Assembly: GCA_046351655.1 (NCBI GenBank)
Contig: JAXLYD010000072.1
Location: 1 to 15,664, forward strand
Direction: 5' to 3'
DNA from: Polyangia bacterium
GTDB taxonomy: Bacteria > Myxococcota_A > Polyangia > Palsa-1104 > JAEUJZ01
Length of the DNA: 15,664 nt
Shown here one piece after another: positions 735 through 7,918 of the stretch. The translations under genes were made by a program, and so were the position numbers. The notes under the pieces are model-generated. The model did not search any database, was not told the DNA's origin, and was given only the letters and a program-made list of their open reading frames with translations. Every line of letters starts with the position of its first letter. Within the stretch, counting starts at the first letter, position 1.

Positions 735-1796
735 CTACAGCGTGTGGCAGTAGCGACACATTCCGTTTCGCACGATCTCTTGACGGTCGTGTCGCTCCAT
801 CCATTCAGGCGGATGCGGATTCCCACCGAGTCCGCCGACCTTGTGACAGTCTACGCAGTTTGAGCGCGGACCTTGATCGTGGCAGCTTGCGCAGCTTGTG
901 ATGTTCCGTCGGGCTGCAAGACCATGGAACTGCGGCGTACCCGGAATGTTGAATCCCGACGGATGTGGGTTTCGCGGGTTGTCGCTGCGACCACTTACGC
1001 CCTGCTCTTTGTGGCAGTTTTCGCAGAAGCTCTGTCCGTGGCAGCGCAGACACGATGCCGGATCGGCGCGCGTTTCGATGCTGTGTCTGCCGATGAAGTC
1101 GCCGCGGTGAATCAGATCGCTGTCGGCGCGCTCTGGGAATTTCAGCTCAATCGGAGCGAACACCGTTTTGGCATGACAGTCGGCACAGAATGTCTGTTCA
1201 TGACAGGTCGCGCAGCTCTCTGGCGAGGATCGCGCCGGTCGAGCATGGCCCAGTACAAAGTTGCCGCGATGCGAAAACTGCGTGATCGGTTTCTGCGGAT
1301 AGCGGCGCAGATCCTTGTGACAGGTGCCGCAGCTTCCTTGCTCGTATTCCTGCTTGTGGGTATGGCAACCAAAGCACGACTCCATGGTCGGCGGCGTACC
1401 GGGTTGGCCTTTTTCCGACAGCGTCTTGTGGCAGCGGGTGCAGTCTTCTTTGGTCTGCTCGATGTGCTTGGCGTGCGACAGCTTCAGCGTCGATGGAGTC
1501 CGCCGATAGGAAGTCGGGCGAATCGGATCAGAATGACAGAATCCGCACTCGCCTTTCTTTTTGTTGTCTTCGTGGCATTCCAGACACTTTGACTCCTTGG
1601 GAAAGAAGTCCCCTTTCATGTCTTGCGCGTCGTAAATCGGTTCGTGACAGACCACGCAGTCGATCTTGGCTTTGCTGTGGACGCTGTGTGGAACCTTGAT
1701 CGTGTCGCCCCCGCCGATCTTGGCCCAGAATGTCGCACAGGCGACGGTAAATAGAACGCTGGCCAGCAAAAACCAGCGGAGGGCTCGGGCGCTCAT
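735..1796 (-). CDS. Periplasmic or membrane-anchored multiheme c-type cytochrome with 13 CxxCH motifs (doubled-CXXCH type)
   Basis: 353 aa. N-terminal hydrophobic segment (signal or anchor). 13 CxxCH: CVVCH, CLECH, CGFCH, CTRCH, CFGCH, CGTCH, CATCH, CADCH, CLRCH, CENCH, CASCH, CVDCH, CRYCH. Several occur as paired CxxCH-x(3-5)-FCxxCH units. Start ATG overlaps the upstream stop (ATGA at 1793-1796). Confidence 0.9.
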   Translation of the reverse strand: MSARALRWFLLASVLFTVACATFWAKIGGGDTIKVPHSVHSKAKIDCVVCHEPIYDAQDMKGDFFPKESKCLECHEDNKKKGECGFCHSDPIRPTSYRRTPSTLKLSHAKHIEQTKEDCTRCHKTLSEKGQPGTPPTMESCFGCHTHKQEYEQGSCGTCHKDLRRYPQKPITQFSHRGNFVLGHARPARSSPESCATCHEQTFCADCHAKTVFAPIELKFPERADSDLIHRGDFIGRHSIETRADPASCLRCHGQSFCENCHKEQGVSGRSDNPRNPHPSGFNIPGTPQFHGLAARRNITSCASCHDQGPRSNCVDCHKVGGLGGNPHPPEWMERHDRQEIVRNGMCRYCHTL

Positions 1797-3055
1797 TGCT
1801 GCACCTCACGGAAGACTTGCGTTGCGTTGTACGCGAGCTTTACGACAAACTCAACGCGCCTTTCCACAAACGGAGTCACGTCGGCAAAGCCTGTCGCCAC
1901 GATTCGGAAGCCGCGACCCAAGTTGCCTGCAACGGTTCCGGTCCCCGTAAACGAAAACGCTTGTCCGTTTATCGGTTGATCCAAAAAGTAACTGTTGGCA
2001 CCCAGCGTTACAAACCAAGCCGGAGTCAGCTTGTGGGTGCTGTAAAGCCGCGCTTGGACGTAGCCATTGTTTGGCAGTTTCAGTACGCGCAGCTCGCCGT
2101 TTAGCGTCGTGTGATCGCGCTGTCCCAGTGCGACTGTGGCCTTGATTCCGCCGCGCGCTCCGATTCCTTCCATGTTCACGACTGCGCGGAGATCGCCATA
2201 GAAACGGAGTCTGCGGATCGGCTTGAAAAAGACATTCCCGCCGACTTCATCGCGTGTCTCTTGCGAAAACACCGAAAAAATCGAGTTGAGCGGCAGAAAC
2301 AGATCGGGTGCTGTCCGACGATAATCGGCGCCGATCTGAAACATCAGATTGGGAATCCAGGTTGCTGCCACATCGGCTTCCGCAACCCTCGCTTCTGGAA
2401 TCGAATACAGCGTATATCCGGTCAGCGCGATCTGTTCATGGGGAACATAGCGTGCATCGACCGCGATGTCCTGACGGGCGGCGCGGCCTTCCCCCATCAC
2501 TTGGTGAAAAGACACCCCGACTTCGGTGTCCACGGAATGGCGGTAAAACATCCTGCCGCCGAACACCACGTCCCCGCGGCTGACCGAAAAACGCGGCGTG
2601 ACCGGAACGCCCCCGTACCCGCTGATCCCAAGTCCTTTGTAGATTTGCAGAGTCGCCGATCCACCGTCGAGCTGGGTGCTGCGCGCGGCCCCACCAAAGA
2701 CAAACTGACGACCCAGACGTACTTGCACCCTTTTTTTCCAGAAGCTGCCTTCCAGATAGCCAAGATCGATGTCTCCGGACCAGTACTCGTCACGGCCTAT
2801 GTCCAGTTGTACAGAGCCCCAGCCCGACATCACAATGTTGATGCTGTCGAAATAGGGGCGCTTGATCTGCGCTGTGACACCAAGCGATTGATAGACCGGA
2901 ACGACGGTGTGGATCTCTCCGTCCCGTGGGTCAGCACGCCCGGACAGCAGCGTCGATACATTGAATTCGACCGAGTCCGCACGCGCTACGGAAGCCAAAC
3001 ACAGCGCGCCGCACAGAATCGACCGCTTGAGTCTTTGATGGGACTTAGTTTCCAT
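1793..3055 (-). CDS. Outer-membrane beta-barrel (porin-like) component of a porin-cytochrome conduit
   Basis: 420 aa. Signal peptide ...CLASVARA|DS. Alternating hydrophobic/polar beta-strand patterns throughout (IALTGYTLYSI, YVQARLYST, WFVTLGANSYF, GFRIVATGF, EFVVKLAYN). G/Y/aromatic-rich with no Cys motifs. Sandwiched between multiheme cytochrome genes, with an 11-nt overlap upstream and a 4-nt overlap downstream. The ORF is certain; the porin role is an inference. Confidence 0.6.
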   Translation of the reverse strand: METKSHQRLKRSILCGALCLASVARADSVEFNVSTLLSGRADPRDGEIHTVVPVYQSLGVTAQIKRPYFDSINIVMSGWGSVQLDIGRDEYWSGDIDLGYLEGSFWKKRVQVRLGRQFVFGGAARSTQLDGGSATLQIYKGLGISGYGGVPVTPRFSVSRGDVVFGGRMFYRHSVDTEVGVSFHQVMGEGRAARQDIAVDARYVPHEQIALTGYTLYSIPEARVAEADVAATWIPNLMFQIGADYRRTAPDLFLPLNSIFSVFSQETRDEVGGNVFFKPIRRLRFYGDLRAVVNMEGIGARGGIKATVALGQRDHTTLNGELRVLKLPNNGYVQARLYSTHKLTPAWFVTLGANSYFLDQPINGQAFSFTGTGTVAGNLGRGFRIVATGFADVTPFVERRVEFVVKLAYNATQVFREVQQ

Positions 3056-4670
3056 CGGCGACTCCGTTTAGGTGCGTCGTGGTCAGGGCTCCCGGCGGAC
3101 CAGAAAAGAGAATCGTGCCGCTTGCGTCCATGGTCTTGGCGTGGCAGGTCACACAGTCGACAAGTCGCATGGTGGCGGTGTGGTTGGCATCTTTGGGCGG
3201 AATGCCGTGACATGATCCGCACGACGCTTGGTTCTCTGCGTTCCAGATCGGATTCCGATTCACCGTCGTGCTGGTGTCTGTCAGCAGCTTGCTGCCGCTG
3301 CCGTGACAGTACGTACTGGAACACTTGGCGGCTGCGCGATCCCACTTGGGACTGGCTCCTTCTCGATTGCTAAGCTGCGCCGCAAGCGAGGCCGGAAAGA
3401 TGGTGACACCTTGTCCGAACGCTTTGTGAAGGTTGCCGCTGCCCAGAAGTTGCAGGTCGTTGCGGTGGCATTCCGAGCACGCAATCGGAGCGCTCAGCTT
3501 GTGACTGGCATTGACGTGCGCTGCGTGTGCGCCGACGCTGACGAGGCTTGTATCGGTCTTCCGCAACAGATCCTGGAAAGGACTGCTGCCGCCAAATCCG
3601 TGGCAAGATGAGCACTGTCCTTTGCCATCGCCTGCATCGCTCTTTCCGTTTACGTGCAGACCCCCTGTGACAAAGTGTTTGGCATCGTCCACCGTGCGGT
3701 TGTGACAAAGCACGCAGCGGGTGATGCTTGGATCATGGCTCGCAGGGGGCGCGCCGTGACAGGTTCCGCAGATCGCTTGCGTGCTCGGTCCTGTCCACGT
3801 TGGCGTCGTATTCGCTGCATTGAGATCGCCGAGCACAGCACCATGACAGTAGACATTTGTGCACTGCTTGGTCCCGGCATCAAACAGCGGCGGACTTGTG
3901 CGATACATCGCGTAGGGAGTCGCACTGGCCAAGCTTCCAAATGCAATGATCGGAGGCGACGTGCGCAGGGTGTCATCGCTGTTAAACACATGCCCCGGAT
4001 CAAGCCAGGAGACACGCTTTGGATGGCACTCTGTACACGCGATTTGACGACCCAGTGAAGCGCCCGTTGCGTGCGCACGGTGGGCACTTGGCAGACGGGA
4101 ATGGCACGTATCGCAGGTGGTCACGCCTTGCGGATGACAGGTCAGGCACGACACCTTGACTTCGCCCCCTGTCAGGTCTTGACCGTGACAGCCGCTGCAC
4201 GCGCTGAGCTTGTAGTTTGCTTGCCGCAGCAGCGCACCGTGAAACTGCCCGTTTGGATCTTCGGGGTTTAGGATTCCGGCTTGGTGATAGATCGATCGAA
4301 CGTAGGACACACCACAGTCCACGATCCAGGTCCGCAGCGAATCACGGACCGCATCGGAAATGCGCTTGTGGGAATCCGATGTGGTGTCGCTCGCGATGAT
4401 CAAAAGAAGCCGGGAGTTTGCATCCCCAGCGACGGATCGAACAGGCTGGGAACCGCCTCCCAAGACGGACAGATAATCCGATGTATCAAGCCCACCCGCA
4501 GGTGCTGGGCCGCTGTGACAACTGCCACAGTTGTCTTTCATGATCTGTGCTACGTCGTCTTTCCAGCTTGTGCACTGCGTCCGCGTTCCTTGCGGAGTCC
4601 GCGCACTGCCGCAGCCGATGAGCAACATCACTGCACACAGCAGCGATGGATATCCAAGCACCCCGCCCAT
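3045..4670 (-). CDS. Lipoprotein multiheme c-type cytochrome (11 CxxCH + 2 CxxxxCH), OmcB-like family
   Basis: The track ORF 3045..4766 begins at GTG. The likely true start is ATG 4670 (M33), preceded by AAGGAG 8 nt upstream and only 5 nt after the TAG of the upstream gene. N-terminus MGGVLGYPSLLCAVMLLIGC with lipobox LIGC. CxxCH motifs: CGSCH, CSGCH, CLTCH, CDTCH, CTECH, CGTCH, CVLCH, CSSCH, CSECH, CGSCH, CVTCH. Two CxxxxCH motifs (CTNVYCHG, CSSTYCHG), each followed by a CxxCHG. Confidence 0.85.
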   Translation of the reverse strand: MGGVLGYPSLLCAVMLLIGCGSARTPQGTRTQCTSWKDDVAQIMKDNCGSCHSGPAPAGGLDTSDYLSVLGGGSQPVRSVAGDANSRLLLIIASDTTSDSHKRISDAVRDSLRTWIVDCGVSYVRSIYHQAGILNPEDPNGQFHGALLRQANYKLSACSGCHGQDLTGGEVKVSCLTCHPQGVTTCDTCHSRLPSAHRAHATGASLGRQIACTECHPKRVSWLDPGHVFNSDDTLRTSPPIIAFGSLASATPYAMYRTSPPLFDAGTKQCTNVYCHGAVLGDLNAANTTPTWTGPSTQAICGTCHGAPPASHDPSITRCVLCHNRTVDDAKHFVTGGLHVNGKSDAGDGKGQCSSCHGFGGSSPFQDLLRKTDTSLVSVGAHAAHVNASHKLSAPIACSECHRNDLQLLGSGNLHKAFGQGVTIFPASLAAQLSNREGASPKWDRAAAKCSSTYCHGSGSKLLTDTSTTVNRNPIWNAENQASCGSCHGIPPKDANHTATMRLVDCVTCHAKTMDASGTILFSGPPGALTTTHLNGVADGN

Positions 4671-4675
4671 CGCCG

Positions 4676-7105
4676 CTACTCCTTTTCGCGCAAGTAAGGA
4701 GGCTTGTACGGATTTGCGATGTTGTGGACTTTGCTGACAGAAAACTCCGCGCCTTCGCTGTGACACACCGAACAGGTTTCCACCGGCTTGCCCATCGGAT
4801 CGGTCCAGGTATTAAGAGCCGCATGTCCCGCTGCAGCAGAGGTATCGTGACAGCCCAGACACGCCGCGGTTCCGGCCTGTAGATAGGATGTGTTTTGGCA
4901 CTTTCCGGACACGCAGCTCTGTCCGATACCACAGGGGGCCGATGCAGAGCAGCTTGCGCCGGAGTCTCCGTGGCATTTTTTGCAGTTGCGAACATCTTGC
5001 GGAAACAGAATTTCCGAAAAGTCATTCGCAGTGTTCGAGTTGCCGATGTAGACAAGCGCGTTTGGTTTGACAAGACCACTGCGTTCCGCATAACCACCGA
5101 GCAGTCGCGCGAAGTGGGTGGAGTGAATCATCGCCGAAAACAGAATTGTCTGTCCGGGCGTCGGATCGACCGAGATCACACAGGTGTCCGCTTTTCCGTC
5201 GGCATTGGTGTCCTGACAAGTTTCCCAACCAGCGGCATTGCCACGACATTGGCTGCTCATCGTGCAGGCCAGACCGCGGCCCCCAACGATGCGATCGACA
5301 GCGCCAGCGGTGTGACAGATCGAACAGCCTTCCGCATCGCGACGACTACCGCCGTGCGCTTGCGTGACAACGTGGCAGCTATTGCAGGACTCTCGCTTGA
5401 TGACATGGCGCGGCTGAATCGCTTGTGATCCACCGACGCGGAAATCGACCAGTGCGCTGCCGACATCGCGGATCGATGTGCCTTTGTACGTCGTCGTTTC
5501 CACCACGTAGAGCCACGCGGAATAAGTTCCGGCGGGATTGGCCCGCGGCGTAAGTCCAGTCGTGTTCAGTGGCGTCTGTGCGTTCGCCGGCCAAGTCGTG
5601 GCCGGACTGTACGAATACACATTGCTCGCGGAATCAAACGTCAGCGTTCCCACCGTCTTGAGGCTCAGCGACGGATAAATCATCTGCCGATCGTTTGTCG
5701 GCCCACCAATCAGCAGCGTGGCAGACAGCGCAGAATTGGTCTTCAGATCGGTGATCGCGGCACCTGTTCCGTCCGCGACTTTGAAGCTGAGCTTGAATGT
5801 ATCGCCGACCATCATGGCGGCCATCGGACCCGATCCGCCGGATACCGTGACTTCGCTCAGCTGGACTTTGCGGACATGGGTGCGCGTCAGGATTTCGTGT
5901 TTGTCCGGAATCGGCGAAATGCCCGATGAGTCCGCGCTGTGGCACGTCGTACACTGCGCATCGTCTGTTTGCTTGGGATGCGTCGATGTTTCGCACAGCA
6001 GTGAGGCCGGATTGCACTTGGCCAGGCTGCTCTTGCTGGCGCAGTCGGCATCGACGGCACAAACGCCGGTGTACGTGCGGATTGGACTCAGCGTTCCGGT
6101 GTCAAAAAACAGTGCATCGTGACAAGCGCCGCAGGCCTGACGCGACGGCTTTTTCAGATAGCGATCGTCTTTGTGACACTTTACACAGTCTTTTTCCGCA
6201 TCAGGCATCGATGGGAATCCGACGTTTGTAAACAGCGGCAGGGTTGTATCCGCAGGAACGCCGTATTCTGGATGGGCGACGCCGGGGTTTGCCTGATGTT
6301 CACCGCGGTGCACACCATGGACTTTGCGCACCGTCGTGTTGGCACTGTATCCGTCCTGGTTGTGACAGACTTTGCAGCTTGCGATGGGGAATAGATCCAG
6401 CGACCAGTTTCCCAGCGGCGAAAATCCCGGCTCGATGTGATGCATGTACAGCTTGCCGGTCTCGGTTCCCTTGTGACAGTCGGCGCAGCTAGAAGACTGC
6501 GGGTCGCCCGATGCATAGGTTTCCACCGTCGCTGTGCCGATCTGAAAATCGAGCAGAGGGAATATCTGCTGCTGCTCATCTGCGGTCTTGGCCCACAGGG
6601 CAACCGTGTATGTTCCCGCTGCTTCACTTCCGATGGGGGCAAGCTGATACGTCAGCGATCCATCCGATTCCGTCGTCAGACCTGGTGCATTTGGGTTTGC
6701 GTAGGACGGATTCTTTAGGTTGATGTAGTGGTGCTGGCGATCCTTGGCAGTTCGATCGGTGACAGCATTGAGCAGCAGGTTCGCACTCTTGGTCGTGATT
6801 GCCCCGCGCGGACCCACGATGTACAGATTTGCGGTCCCAAGCTCCGACGGCGCGAGGAGGCGTCCACAGTCCGATCCGAGCTTCAGCGTGAGCTTGGGCG
6901 CTTCACCGGGCATGTAATAGGAACCCTGCGCCGGGGGCGAAAGCGCAAGCTCTGCTTTGAAACCGGGGCCGTTCGGATCGCACGCCACCGGATTCATGTC
7001 CGTGCTAGGAATCAGAGATCCGGAAGGACCGATGGGTCCGACGGGGCCTTCGCACGTTGCGAACATCAAGGCACACAGAGAGAGGAGTCTGCTGGTGAGC
7101 CGCAT
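4676..7105 (-). CDS. Outer-surface decaheme c-type cytochrome, MtrC/OmcA-like domain arrangement, probable lipoprotein
   Basis: 809 aa. Signal peptide MRLTSRLLSLCALMFATC (lipobox-like). About 200 heme-free residues, then 5 CxxCH (CADCH, CKVCH, CVKCH, CGACH, CTTCH). About 180 heme-free residues with a Cys cluster (CAVDADCASKSSLAKCNPASLLC), then 5 CxxCH (CNSCH, CSICH, CKKCH, CLGCH, CSVCH). First gene of the operon. Confidence 0.85.
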   Translation of the reverse strand: MRLTSRLLSLCALMFATCEGPVGPIGPSGSLIPSTDMNPVACDPNGPGFKAELALSPPAQGSYYMPGEAPKLTLKLGSDCGRLLAPSELGTANLYIVGPRGAITTKSANLLLNAVTDRTAKDRQHHYINLKNPSYANPNAPGLTTESDGSLTYQLAPIGSEAAGTYTVALWAKTADEQQQIFPLLDFQIGTATVETYASGDPQSSSCADCHKGTETGKLYMHHIEPGFSPLGNWSLDLFPIASCKVCHNQDGYSANTTVRKVHGVHRGEHQANPGVAHPEYGVPADTTLPLFTNVGFPSMPDAEKDCVKCHKDDRYLKKPSRQACGACHDALFFDTGTLSPIRTYTGVCAVDADCASKSSLAKCNPASLLCETSTHPKQTDDAQCTTCHSADSSGISPIPDKHEILTRTHVRKVQLSEVTVSGGSGPMAAMMVGDTFKLSFKVADGTGAAITDLKTNSALSATLLIGGPTNDRQMIYPSLSLKTVGTLTFDSASNVYSYSPATTWPANAQTPLNTTGLTPRANPAGTYSAWLYVVETTTYKGTSIRDVGSALVDFRVGGSQAIQPRHVIKRESCNSCHVVTQAHGGSRRDAEGCSICHTAGAVDRIVGGRGLACTMSSQCRGNAAGWETCQDTNADGKADTCVISVDPTPGQTILFSAMIHSTHFARLLGGYAERSGLVKPNALVYIGNSNTANDFSEILFPQDVRNCKKCHGDSGASCSASAPCGIGQSCVSGKCQNTSYLQAGTAACLGCHDTSAAAGHAALNTWTDPMGKPVETCSVCHSEGAEFSVSKVHNIANPYKPPYLREKE

Positions 7106-7354
7106 GGATATTAGTCTCTTAATGATGATGATAATTCCTCGCGGAACGGAATGGGAAGCTGATAGTCGATCGAATGCTCACGAAAACGTGTCCGCAATCG
7201 GCAAGTGGCTTCTCGATCAGGGTGCAGAATCTAACGCTAGGATCGATTTGAGGGGGCTGTCCGGGGCCGAAATGTGCGCAAACGTCGTCGAAAGATCCGC
7301 TGCTGTGGACATCCTCTTGCCATTTCCGAGAAAATGCAAAAGGGGGTCGAAAGT
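7106..7354. promoter_or_regulatory. Divergent promoter region between the cytochrome operon (-) and the EF-hand gene (+)
   Basis: 249-bp non-coding gap between divergent starts. Contains an AT-richer patch (ttaatgatgatgataatt, 7118-7136), the 8-bp palindrome TCGATCGA and GATC-containing inverted repeats. No confident -35/-10 assignment. Confidence 0.35.
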
Positions 7355-7918
7355 ATGCAGAGCATTTTGTCACCGCTACAGGTTCGCAAGTTCTCCACGC
7401 TGTTTTCCCTGCTAGACACAAATGGAGACGGATGTCTTTCGGAAGCAGACTTTCGCGAGCAAGCGCGGCGGATTTTAGAAGCGTTTGGTCTTGCGCAAGA
7501 TGAACGTCGAGCACGGCTTCTGTTTGAGAGCCGCAGCGAGCTGTTTCATCGTCTGATTTCCGGTGCAGACAAAGACCGCAGCGGAACCGTTTCCTTGGAT
7601 GAGTTTCTGCGCTATTTCGAACGGCAAATTCTCGCGCATCGGGCTGCTGGGGTTGCATCACCGTGGCTTGTGCAGTCGTGTCGTGATGTGATCGAACTGA
7701 TCGATCAAGATCGCAACGAAACCATCAGCGAAGCCGAGTATGCGCAGCTTCTGCGTGCGATGGGAAGCGATGCGGACCCGCATGTAAACTTTGCCAAGCT
7801 GGATCGGGATGGCGATGGAAAACTGACGTTAAAAGAAATGGTGGCGCTGTCGCTGGAATTTATGACCAGCGACGATCCAGATGCGCCAGGGAACTTCTTT
7901 TTCTGTGGGAAGGTGTAA
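7355..7918 (+). CDS. EF-hand calcium-binding protein with four EF-hand loops
   Basis: Track ORF 7274 starts at GTG. Best start is ATG 7355, with AAGGGGG 8 nt upstream. Loops: DTNGDGCLSEAD, DKDRSGTVSLDE, DQDRNETISEAE, DRDGDGKLTLKE. No signal peptide. Confidence 0.8.
   Translation: MQSILSPLQVRKFSTLFSLLDTNGDGCLSEADFREQARRILEAFGLAQDERRARLLFESRSELFHRLISGADKDRSGTVSLDEFLRYFERQILAHRAAGVASPWLVQSCRDVIELIDQDRNETISEAEYAQLLRAMGSDADPHVNFAKLDRDGDGKLTLKEMVALSLEFMTSDDPDAPGNFFFCGKV

What the first reader, a model, noticed from the sequence alone, without database searches (positions are those of the whole stretch)
3045..4670. Non-canonical CxxxxCH heme motifs paired with CxxCHG in the lipoprotein cytochrome
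Besides 11 CxxCH, the protein has QCTNVYCHG...(17 aa)...CGTCHG and KCSSTYCHG...(~30 aa)...CGSCHG. I recall the CX4CH followed by CXXCH arrangement as a signature of a Geobacter-associated multiheme domain. That would place this protein with OmcB-type outer-membrane cytochromes and raise the heme count to 13. The likely true start (ATG 4670, lipobox LIGC) differs from the ORF-track start, which is GTG at 4766.
Basis: partly seen in the sequence, partly recalled or inferred. Interest (0 to 1): 0.5.

Follow-up and report, generated by a model that had tools for sequence, protein, structure and literature searches.

The report
Thirteen-heme lipoprotein cytochrome, known CX4CH domain
The two odd CxxxxCH motifs are real, invariant parts of an already catalogued heme-binding domain, so this myxobacterial lipoprotein most likely carries 13 hemes and belongs to an outer-membrane electron-transfer gene cluster: a correct but ordinary finding.

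Summary
From ATG 4670 the ORF on the minus strand (3045-4670) encodes 541 aa with 11 CxxCH and 2 CxxxxCH motifs.

TIGR01904 scores 76.6 bits (cutoff 27) and PF09698 scores 46.8 bits (cutoff 21.7). Each of the two units also passes both cutoffs alone.

All Cys and His of both CX4CH motifs are invariant in 79 homologs of 30-99% identity. Thirteen non-motif His are conserved, which matches 13 bis-His hemes. GenBank already lists this protein as a 541-aa 'CxxxxCH/CxxCH domain-containing protein' from a Polyangia MAG, so the start codon and the family were already public.

'OmcB-type' is right only by analogy. The gene lies between an MtrC-like decaheme lipoprotein gene and genes for a ~22-strand outer-membrane barrel and a 13-heme periplasmic cytochrome. 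This cluster is conserved across Myxococcota. Published motif counts give OmcB only CX2CH motifs, and I could not test homology to OmcB directly.

Heme attachment at CX4CH is inferred, not shown. The protein is a new member of a known kind, of low to moderate interest.

The parts
3045..4670 (-). Gene for the 541-aa lipoprotein multiheme c-type cytochrome (11 CxxCH + 2 CxxxxCH; stop codon 3045-3047)
   Evidence: translation, motif count. (PF09698, TIGR01904, PF14522). (identical length and start in GenBank MFO0658083.1).
4679..4684 (-). Shine-Dalgarno AAGGAG, 8 nt upstream of ATG 4670. It lies inside the last codons of the upstream gene, whose stop is TAG 4676-4678.
   Evidence: upstream sequence CGCGAAAAGGAGTAGCGGCG-ATG
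4611..4670 (-). Signal peptide with lipobox L-I-G-C (lipidated Cys20 = nt 4611-4613). There is no basic residue in the n-region.
   Evidence: Cys20 is conserved in 75 of 79 homologs. Lipoboxes are visible in the homolog N-termini.
4281..4574 (-). N-terminal monoheme domain (aa 33-130; heme 1 at C48xxC51H52, conserved H101, covarying C33/C119 pair)
3636..4166 (-). Module A (aa 169-345), carrying hemes at C175, C186, C212, C270 (CX4CH), C301 and C319
   Evidence: Internal duplication with module B, 29% identity, E 6e-21
3843..3863 (-). First non-canonical motif C270-TNVY-C275-H276
   Evidence: Invariant in 79 of 79 homologs, with CX4 spacing in 78 of 79.
3756..3770 (-). Paired canonical motif C301-GT-C304-H305 (followed by G-x-P-P and conserved H312)
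   Evidence: The unit alone scores TIGR01904 49.3 bits and PF09698 36.0 bits.
3051..3632 (-). Module B (aa 347-540), carrying hemes at C353, C398, C450 (CX4CH), C484 and C506
3303..3323 (-). Second non-canonical motif C450-SSTY-C455-H456
   Evidence: Invariant in 79 of 79 homologs, with CX4 spacing in 68 and CX3 in 11.
3207..3221 (-). Paired canonical motif C484-GS-C487-H488 (followed by G-I-P-P and conserved H497)
   Evidence: The unit alone scores TIGR01904 50.9 bits and PF09698 32.8 bits.
4676..7105 (-). Upstream gene for an 809-aa MtrC/OmcA-like decaheme lipoprotein (10 CxxCH, lipobox FATC)
   Evidence: PF22113 105.8 bits; TIGR03507 184.8 bits, below its cutoff of 209.3. Syntenic in most relatives.
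1793..3055 (-). Downstream gene, overlapping by 11 nt, for a 420-aa outer-membrane beta-barrel with a signal peptide and ~22 strands (porin-like conduit sheath)
735..1796 (-). Last gene of the cluster (ATGA overlap), a 353-aa cytochrome with 13 CxxCH and 26 His, presumed periplasmic
   Evidence: PF14522 55.4 bits. Motif count. Syntenic in relatives.

Best explanation
The gene at 3045-4670(-) encodes an exported, lipid-anchored c-type cytochrome that most likely binds 13 hemes covalently.

Its layout is an N-terminal monoheme domain, one further CxxCH, and two tandem copies of a ~180-residue multiheme module. The signature of that module is the curated CxxxxCH/CxxCH domain (TIGR01904 / PF09698): a beta-hairpin, then Cxxx(Y)CHG, then P-x-W, then CGxCHGxPP..H.

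In each module the CX4CH is an ordinary heme attachment site with a longer spacer. The two Cys form the thioether bonds and the His is the proximal ligand. The 13 conserved non-motif His serve as distal ligands.

The protein is one of two lipoprotein cytochromes in a four-gene operon. The other three genes encode an MtrC-like decaheme lipoprotein, a ~22-strand outer-membrane barrel and a 13-heme periplasmic cytochrome. Together they most likely form a porin-cytochrome conduit that carries electrons across the outer membrane to or from extracellular substrates.

Shown here: the motifs, family membership, conservation, gene-cluster conservation and the barrel fold. Inferred: heme occupancy at CX4CH, surface location, complex formation and direction of electron flow.
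For: Motifs and start codon.

Family: PF09698 46.8 bits (cutoff 21.7) and TIGR01904 76.6 bits (cutoff 27), two stretches each. Each unit alone scores 49.3 and 50.9 bits against TIGR01904 and 36.0 and 32.8 bits against PF09698.

Conservation: every Cys and His of all 13 motifs is 96-100% conserved in 79 homologs (both CX4CH motifs 100%). The only other mature-protein Cys, C33 and C119, covary like a disulfide pair. Thirteen non-motif His are conserved: 101, 129, 144, 197, 200, 227, 312, 339, 382, 385, 415, 497 and 533.

Spacer variation: CX4CH is replaced by CX3CH in 11 of 79 homologs and throughout the giant relative P0301. In giant relatives the motif recurs every ~172 aa.

Internal duplication: E 6e-21.

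CX3-4CH and CXXXXCH bind heme covalently in other cytochromes: Shi 2014 citing Stevens 2004, and mass spectrometry of MmcA. Cytochrome c3 structures show the same (established knowledge).

Against: There is no experimental evidence for this protein or for any member of the CxxxxCH/CxxCH domain family. No solved structure contains the domain.

The signal peptide lacks a basic n-region residue, and the 73%-identical homolog P0002 lacks the lipobox Cys.

Lipoproteins face the periplasm by default, so surface exposure is assumed only by analogy.

The distal-His count is arithmetic, not geometry, because I could not inspect model coordinates.
Confidence: 0.78

Rival explanations
1. The CX4CH motifs do not carry heme. 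The protein has 11 hemes, and the YCHG cysteines form a disulfide or bind a metal as a structural element.
For: No direct chemistry is available for this domain family, and no solved structure contains it.
Against: Cys, Cys and His are all invariant in 79 of 79 homologs, exactly like the canonical sites. By contrast, the likely real disulfide pair C33/C119 is dispensable and covaries. The spacer varies between 4 and 3 residues while the C...CH is kept. There are 13, not 11, conserved candidate distal His. CX4CH is a proven heme site in other cytochromes.
Confidence: 0.07
2. The protein is a true member (ortholog or homolog) of the Geobacter OmcB/OmcC family.
For: It has the same general description: a lipoprotein with 12-13 hemes encoded beside a barrel and a periplasmic cytochrome.
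Against: OmcB/OmcC are described with 12 CX2CH motifs and are absent from the published list of porin-cytochrome outer cytochromes with atypical motifs. Those outer cytochromes share as little as 4% identity and do not form one family. The gene order differs and no TetR-type regulator is in the window. All 80 best genomic relatives are Myxococcota, with no Geobacter among them.
Confidence: 0.05
3. The heme count is the same, but the role differs. The lipoprotein faces the periplasm on the inner leaflet of the outer membrane and feeds the barrel-embedded cytochrome. Alternatively, the whole cluster works in the uptake direction, for example Fe(II) or humic oxidation, rather than in reduction of extracellular acceptors.
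Against: Known conduits with two lipoprotein cytochromes, such as ExtABCD, place both outside. The FoxE similarity is to a generic class-I fold at 17% identity. Nothing in the window indicates direction.
Confidence: 0.25

Closest known systems
CxxxxCH/CxxCH domain c-type cytochromes (NCBIfam TIGR01904; Pfam PF09698 'Geobacter CxxxxCH...CXXCH motif')
   Same: Both units of the protein pass the curated cutoffs. They have the same Cxxx(Y)CHG ... CGxCHG signature. GenBank already gives this protein that name.
   Different: The host is a Polyangia (Myxococcota) MAG, not Geobacter. This is a short two-module form with an added N-terminal monoheme domain. The family itself has no characterised or structurally solved member that I could find.
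Outer-membrane lipoprotein cytochromes with atypical CX3-4CH motifs in porin-cytochrome clusters (GM18_3461/3467, GSU2724, Gura_1837, Geob_1686, IALB_1837; Shi et al. 2014)
   Same: They are lipoprotein cytochromes encoded next to a porin-like barrel and a periplasmic multiheme cytochrome. Their heme count is only complete if CX3-4CH sites are counted.
   Different: Those proteins are much smaller (5-6 hemes), and sequence relatedness to this protein was not tested. Here the atypical sites are 2 of 13.
G. sulfurreducens OmbB-OmaB-OmcB and ExtABCD conduits
   Same: The three-part logic is shared: periplasmic multiheme cytochrome, outer-membrane barrel and one or two redox lipoproteins. ExtABCD also has two lipoprotein cytochromes.
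   Different: OmcB is reported with 12 CX2CH motifs only. The gene order, barrel family (no Pfam) and periplasmic partner (13 hemes, 353 aa) differ. Homology to OmcB is untested.
Anaeromyxobacter-type (group IV) porin-cytochrome clusters
   Same: They are myxobacterial and pair a barrel with a 338-344-aa periplasmic cytochrome of 12-14 hemes, which is close to the 353-aa, 13-heme protein here.
   Different: Those clusters were described as two-gene clusters without outer cytochromes. Here two lipoprotein cytochromes precede the barrel. Direct sequence comparison was not done.
Shewanella MtrC/MtrF/OmcA decaheme cytochromes
   Same: There is a weak local profile match: MtrF 3pmq, E 1.4e-6, over CGxCHG..PP..H..CxxCH, and PF22113 at 34.1 bits over 37 residues. 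The adjacent 809-aa gene is a real MtrC-like protein.
   Different: The CX4CH protein gives no TIGR03507 hit and has no MtrC domain architecture. Mtr cytochromes have no atypical motifs.

Membership tests
CxxxxCH/CxxCH domain cytochromes (TIGR01904 / PF09698) | Whole-protein score above the curated cutoff of both models | tested here: met
   TIGR01904 76.6 bits against a cutoff of 27; PF09698 46.8 bits against 21.7; two stretches each
CxxxxCH/CxxCH domain cytochromes (TIGR01904 / PF09698) | Each CX4CH...CXXCH unit matches the model on its own | tested here: met
   Unit A scores 49.3 / 36.0 bits and unit B scores 50.9 / 32.8 bits
CxxxxCH/CxxCH domain cytochromes (TIGR01904 / PF09698) | CX4CH followed at a short distance by CXXCH, with Cys and His conserved across relatives | tested here: met
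   The spacers are 23 and 26 aa. The Cys and His are invariant in 79 of 79 homologs. The motif recurs every ~172 aa in giant relatives.
CxxxxCH/CxxCH domain cytochromes (TIGR01904 / PF09698) | Covalent heme at the CX4CH site | not testable with these tools
   Inferred only, from conservation, the distal-His count and precedent in c3 and MmcA
Bacterial lipoprotein | Signal peptide ending in a lipobox [LVI][ASTVI][GAS]C | tested here: met
   L-I-G-C at aa 17-20. The Cys is conserved in 75 of 79 homologs. Caveat: there is no basic residue in the n-region.
Porin-cytochrome / Ext-type outer-membrane electron conduit (criteria of Jimenez Otero et al. 2018) | [quoted passage not shown] | tested here: met
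   735-1796(-): 353 aa, 13 CxxCH, c7/c3 family hits. Its periplasmic location is predicted only.
Porin-cytochrome / Ext-type outer-membrane electron conduit (criteria of Jimenez Otero et al. 2018) | An integral outer-membrane beta-barrel protein in the cluster | tested here: met
   [not shown]
Porin-cytochrome / Ext-type outer-membrane electron conduit (criteria of Jimenez Otero et al. 2018) | One or more outer-membrane redox lipoproteins in the cluster | tested here: met
   There are two: the CX4CH cytochrome (LIGC) and the MtrC-like decaheme protein (FATC)
Porin-cytochrome / Ext-type outer-membrane electron conduit (criteria of Jimenez Otero et al. 2018) | Physical complex that transfers electrons across the membrane | not testable with these tools
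   The only support is conserved synteny: 48 of 51 loci
OmcB/OmcC family of G. sulfurreducens | Sequence homology to GSU2737 / GSU2731 | not tested
   No OmcB sequence was obtainable with the tools. The best 80 genomic relatives include no Geobacter.
OmcB/OmcC family of G. sulfurreducens | Heme-site composition of 12 canonical CX2CH with no atypical motif (as published) | tested here: not met
   This protein has 11 CX2CH plus 2 CX4CH. OmcB/OmcC are not among the outer cytochromes listed with atypical motifs.
OmcB/OmcC family of G. sulfurreducens | Cluster organisation regulator - ombB (barrel) - omaB (8-heme periplasmic) - omcB | tested here: not met
   Here the order is MtrC-like, then CX4CH cytochrome, then barrel, then 13-heme cytochrome. 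No regulator is seen in the window.
MtrC/OmcA decaheme family | Score above the TIGR03507 cutoff, or the full PF22113 domain II/IV architecture | tested here: not met
   There is no TIGR03507 hit. PF22113 scores 34.1 bits but covers only residues 481-517.

The most novel reading that the evidence does not exclude
The four-gene cluster may be a distinct, so far undescribed class of outer-membrane electron conduit that is conserved across Myxococcota (Polyangia, Kofleriaceae, Haliangiales, Nannocystineae, Archangiaceae, Bradymonadales). It holds about 36 hemes in an MtrC-like decaheme lipoprotein, the CX4CH 13-heme lipoprotein, an unclassified ~22-strand barrel and a 13-heme periplasmic cytochrome. 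It would join a Shewanella-type surface cytochrome to a Geobacter/Anaeromyxobacter-type porin-cytochrome core through a CX4CH-module adaptor. The same ~172-aa CX4CH module would also be the building block of giant cytochromes with ~150 heme sites.
Probability: 0.3. Interest if true: 0.5.

Novelty: new member of a known kind. Interest (0 to 1): 0.25.

Why it matters
Counting only CxxCH would give 11 hemes in this protein instead of 13. That would leave two apparent gaps, one per module, in what is probably a continuous heme wire. The same undercount would affect every relative, including giants with about 150 sites.

The practical lesson is for annotation and heme-counting pipelines: count CX3-4CH. 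It also points to candidate extracellular electron-transfer capacity in uncultured soil and sediment Myxococcota.

For the finding itself, nothing goes beyond what curated domain models and the GenBank annotation already state. The open point is experimental: no member of this domain family has been purified or solved.

Tried and rejected
- **Sequence and profile searches of the PDB** for a solved CX4CH/CXXCH domain found nothing by single sequence. By profile there was only a weak local MtrF match plus zinc-finger/DnaJ noise from Cys/His richness.
- **A direct test against OmcB failed.** The original OmcB paper is not held, the supplements of the cytochromome survey are not held, and the single genome scan returned only Myxococcota.
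It was repeated with 12 sequences.
- **Literature searches for this cluster type in Myxococcota** found nothing specific. Only three papers mention the domain accessions, all as generic markers.
- **Promoter and terminator scans** were at chance level.
- **Rfam** found nothing in the window.
- **The GTG 4766 start was rejected.** It would overlap the conserved C-terminus of the upstream gene by 91 nt, it lacks an SD, and all public models use ATG 4670.
Full report
**1. Observation**

The longest ORF on the minus strand runs from GTG 4766 to the stop codon at 3045-3047. Motif counting gives 11 CxxCH, no CxxxCH and exactly two CxxxxCH. The two are CTNVYCH (aa 270-276 counted from ATG 4670; nt 3843-3863) and CSSTYCH (aa 450-456; nt 3303-3323).

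Each CxxxxCH is followed by Gly and then by CGTCHG (aa 301-306) or CGSCHG (aa 484-489). Every one of the 13 'CH' dipeptides has a partner Cys at -3 or -5.

**2. Start codon and export signal**

ATG 4670 is preceded by AAGGAG (4679-4684) with an 8-nt spacer. It lies 5 nt downstream of the TAG stop (4676-4678) of the upstream 809-aa gene. That gene's C-terminus aligns to its last residue in relatives, so a GTG 4766 start would require a 91-nt dual-coding overlap.

The 541-aa product starts MGGVLGYPSLLCAVMLLIGC-GS. LIGC is a lipobox, and Cys20 is present in 75 of 79 homologs. The homolog N-termini also show lipoboxes.

An exact-sequence look-up shows that the window is a 15,664-bp contig of a Polyangia MAG. 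Its protein of this cluster, GenBank MFO0658083.1, is listed as a 541-aa 'CxxxxCH/CxxCH domain-containing protein'.

There are two caveats. The n-region has no basic residue, and the 73%-identical homolog P0002 has no lipobox Cys.

**3. Family**

| Query | TIGR01904 (cutoff 27) | PF09698 (cutoff 21.7) |
|---|---|---|
| Whole protein | 76.6 bits, two stretches | 46.8 bits, two stretches |
| Unit A alone | 49.3 bits | 36.0 bits |
| Unit B alone | 50.9 bits | 32.8 bits |

The region from each CX4CH through the next two CxxCH also matches the cytochrome c7 model PF14522 (52.5 bits for the whole protein). That is consistent with a c3/c7-like heme packing unit.

**4. Is CX4CH a heme site?**

I could not test the chemistry, but several sequence arguments agree.

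- In 79 full-length homologs (30-99% identity), both Cys and the His of each CX4CH are 100% conserved, as are 10 of the 11 canonical sites; the N-terminal C48xxC51H52 site is 96-97% conserved.
- The only other Cys of the mature protein, C33 and C119, are dispensable and covary: 58 homologs have both, 17 have neither and 4 are mixed. This is how a structural disulfide behaves, and it is unlike the CX4CH cysteines.
- The spacer can shorten while C...CH is retained. Motif 2 is CX3CH in 11 of 79 homologs. One giant relative, P0301, has 17 CX3CH and no CX4CH.
- Exactly 13 non-motif His are conserved: 101, 129, 144, 197, 200, 227, 312, 339, 382, 385, 415, 497 and 533. H415 was offset by one column in the automatic alignment. 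This matches 13 bis-His hemes; with 11 hemes, two conserved His would be unexplained. The neighbouring 353-aa cytochrome shows the same arithmetic, with 13 CxxCH and 26 His.
- In relatives of up to 5,264 aa the CX4CH recurs with a constant ~172-residue period, once per module.
- There is precedent elsewhere. CX3-4CH motifs are accepted as covalent heme sites (Shi et al. 2014 citing Stevens et al. 2004). Heme adducts on a CXXXXCH peptide were shown by mass spectrometry in MmcA (PMC11024163). Cytochrome c3 structures show the same (established knowledge).

I put the probability that both sites carry heme at about 0.9.

**5. Architecture**

Residues 169-345 and 347-540 are an internal duplication with 29% identity over ~200 columns and pairwise E 6e-21. 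Each copy has the order AHxxH, CxECH, GH, beta-hairpin, Cxxx(Y)CHG, PxW, CGxCHGxPP..H, CxxCH, HxNG. In front of them lie a monoheme domain (aa 33-130) and one further CxxCH.

**6. Context**

All genes in the cluster lie on the minus strand and are tightly packed.

| Coordinates | Product | Evidence |
|---|---|---|
| 4676-7105 | 809-aa MtrC/OmcA-like decaheme lipoprotein | PF22113 105.8 bits; TIGR03507 184.8 bits, below its 209.3 cutoff; lipobox FATC |
| 3045-4670 | The CX4CH cytochrome | See sections 1-5 |
| 735-1796 | 353-aa cytochrome with 13 CxxCH; ATGA overlap with the barrel gene | |

This meets the three published criteria for an outer-membrane electron conduit: a periplasmic multiheme cytochrome, a barrel and one or more redox lipoproteins.

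A scan of one genome per species found 240 relatives. The best 80 are all Myxococcota MAGs. Of the 51 loci with at least 3.5 kb on both sides, 48 keep the barrel and/or the periplasmic cytochrome beside the CX4CH gene, and 30 keep exactly the window's four-gene order. Archangiaceae have the order barrel, periplasmic cytochrome, CX4CH cytochrome.

**7. Comparison with known systems**

The protein is a member of the CxxxxCH/CxxCH domain family. It works like the outer lipoprotein cytochromes of Geobacter porin-cytochrome (Pcc/Ext) clusters, where atypical CX3-4CH motifs have been noted before.

It should not be filed as 'OmcB-type' in the family sense, for four reasons:

- OmcB/OmcC are described with 12 CX2CH motifs and are not on the published list of outer cytochromes with atypical motifs.
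- Those outer cytochromes do not form one sequence family.
- The gene order differs.
- No Geobacter locus appeared among the best 80 relatives.

I could not obtain an OmcB sequence, so direct homology remains untested.

The 353-aa, 13-heme partner resembles in size and heme number the 338-344-aa, 12-14-heme periplasmic cytochromes of the two-gene Anaeromyxobacter clusters.

**8. How common is it?**

HMMER against 1.84 billion representative proteins gives 2,168 hits at E <= 1e-3 and 494 at E <= 1e-30. Many are giant proteins built from up to ~30 copies of the same module. The domain is therefore widespread and not Geobacter-specific.

**9. Verdict**

The family assignment, heme count and start codon are correct in substance but already public, through curated HMMs and the GenBank annotation. 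The OmcB label holds only as a functional analogy. The protein is an uncharacterised new member of a known kind.

The mildly novel element is the conserved myxobacterial four-gene cluster that joins an MtrC-like cytochrome to a porin-cytochrome core through this CX4CH protein. I did not find that cluster described in the held literature. Interest is 0.25.

Noticed in passing
window 8123-10186 (-): A 687-aa protein has eukaryote-type Major Vault Protein domains: MVP_shoulder 67.3 bits, Vault_3 31.8 bits and Vault_4 23.2 bits. It also has a Pro/Ala-rich N-terminus and a long charged C-terminal coiled-coil-like tail. It is conserved (86-88% identity) beside the cytochrome cluster only in the two closest relatives, L002 and L003.
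   Followed up: partly
window 10288-11058 (-): A 256-aa protein with no family match lies directly upstream of the vault-like gene. It is 89% identical in L003, so it may be a partner of the vault-like protein.
   Followed up: no
window 11232-12902 (-) and 13136-14848 (-): Two paralogous proteins of ~560 aa each give only a short, weak N-terminal match to the Bdellovibrio MIDAS-family adhesin model NF052240 (41-44 bits against a cutoff of 700).
   Followed up: no
window 4676-7105 (-): An 809-aa MtrC/OmcA-like decaheme lipoprotein in a myxobacterium has 16 extra cysteines. It scores just under the TIGR03507 subfamily cutoff (184.8 against 209.3). It is joined to a Geobacter/Anaeromyxobacter-style porin-cytochrome core, which is a hybrid arrangement.
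   Followed up: partly
window 1793-3055 (-): The 420-aa outer-membrane barrel belongs to a family of at least 249 'hypothetical proteins' with no Pfam or NCBIfam model. AF2 gives a confident ~22-strand barrel. It is a candidate for a new porin-cytochrome sheath family.
   Followed up: partly
[not shown]
   Followed up: partly
P0297 (metagenomic relative, 5,264 aa; not in the window): This giant lipoprotein is built from ~30 copies of the same ~172-aa module. It has 118 CxxCH, 31 CxxxxCH and 2 CxxxCH, about 151 heme sites in all. That exceeds the 86-motif protein called the largest in a 2025 paper. P0301 (3,276 aa) uses CX3CH in place of every CX4CH.
   Followed up: partly
P0002 (73% identical homolog): It has the same N-terminus as the window protein, but the lipobox Cys is replaced (LILGTGSGS). 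Lipid anchoring may therefore not be universal in the closest relatives, or that sequence may be erroneous.
   Followed up: no
window 7106-8122: A gap of about 1 kb with slightly lower G+C (0.54) lies upstream of the cytochrome operon. It holds only a dubious 180-aa GTG ORF (7119-7661) with no family. Promoter-like matches are at chance level and there is no Rfam hit.
   Followed up: partly
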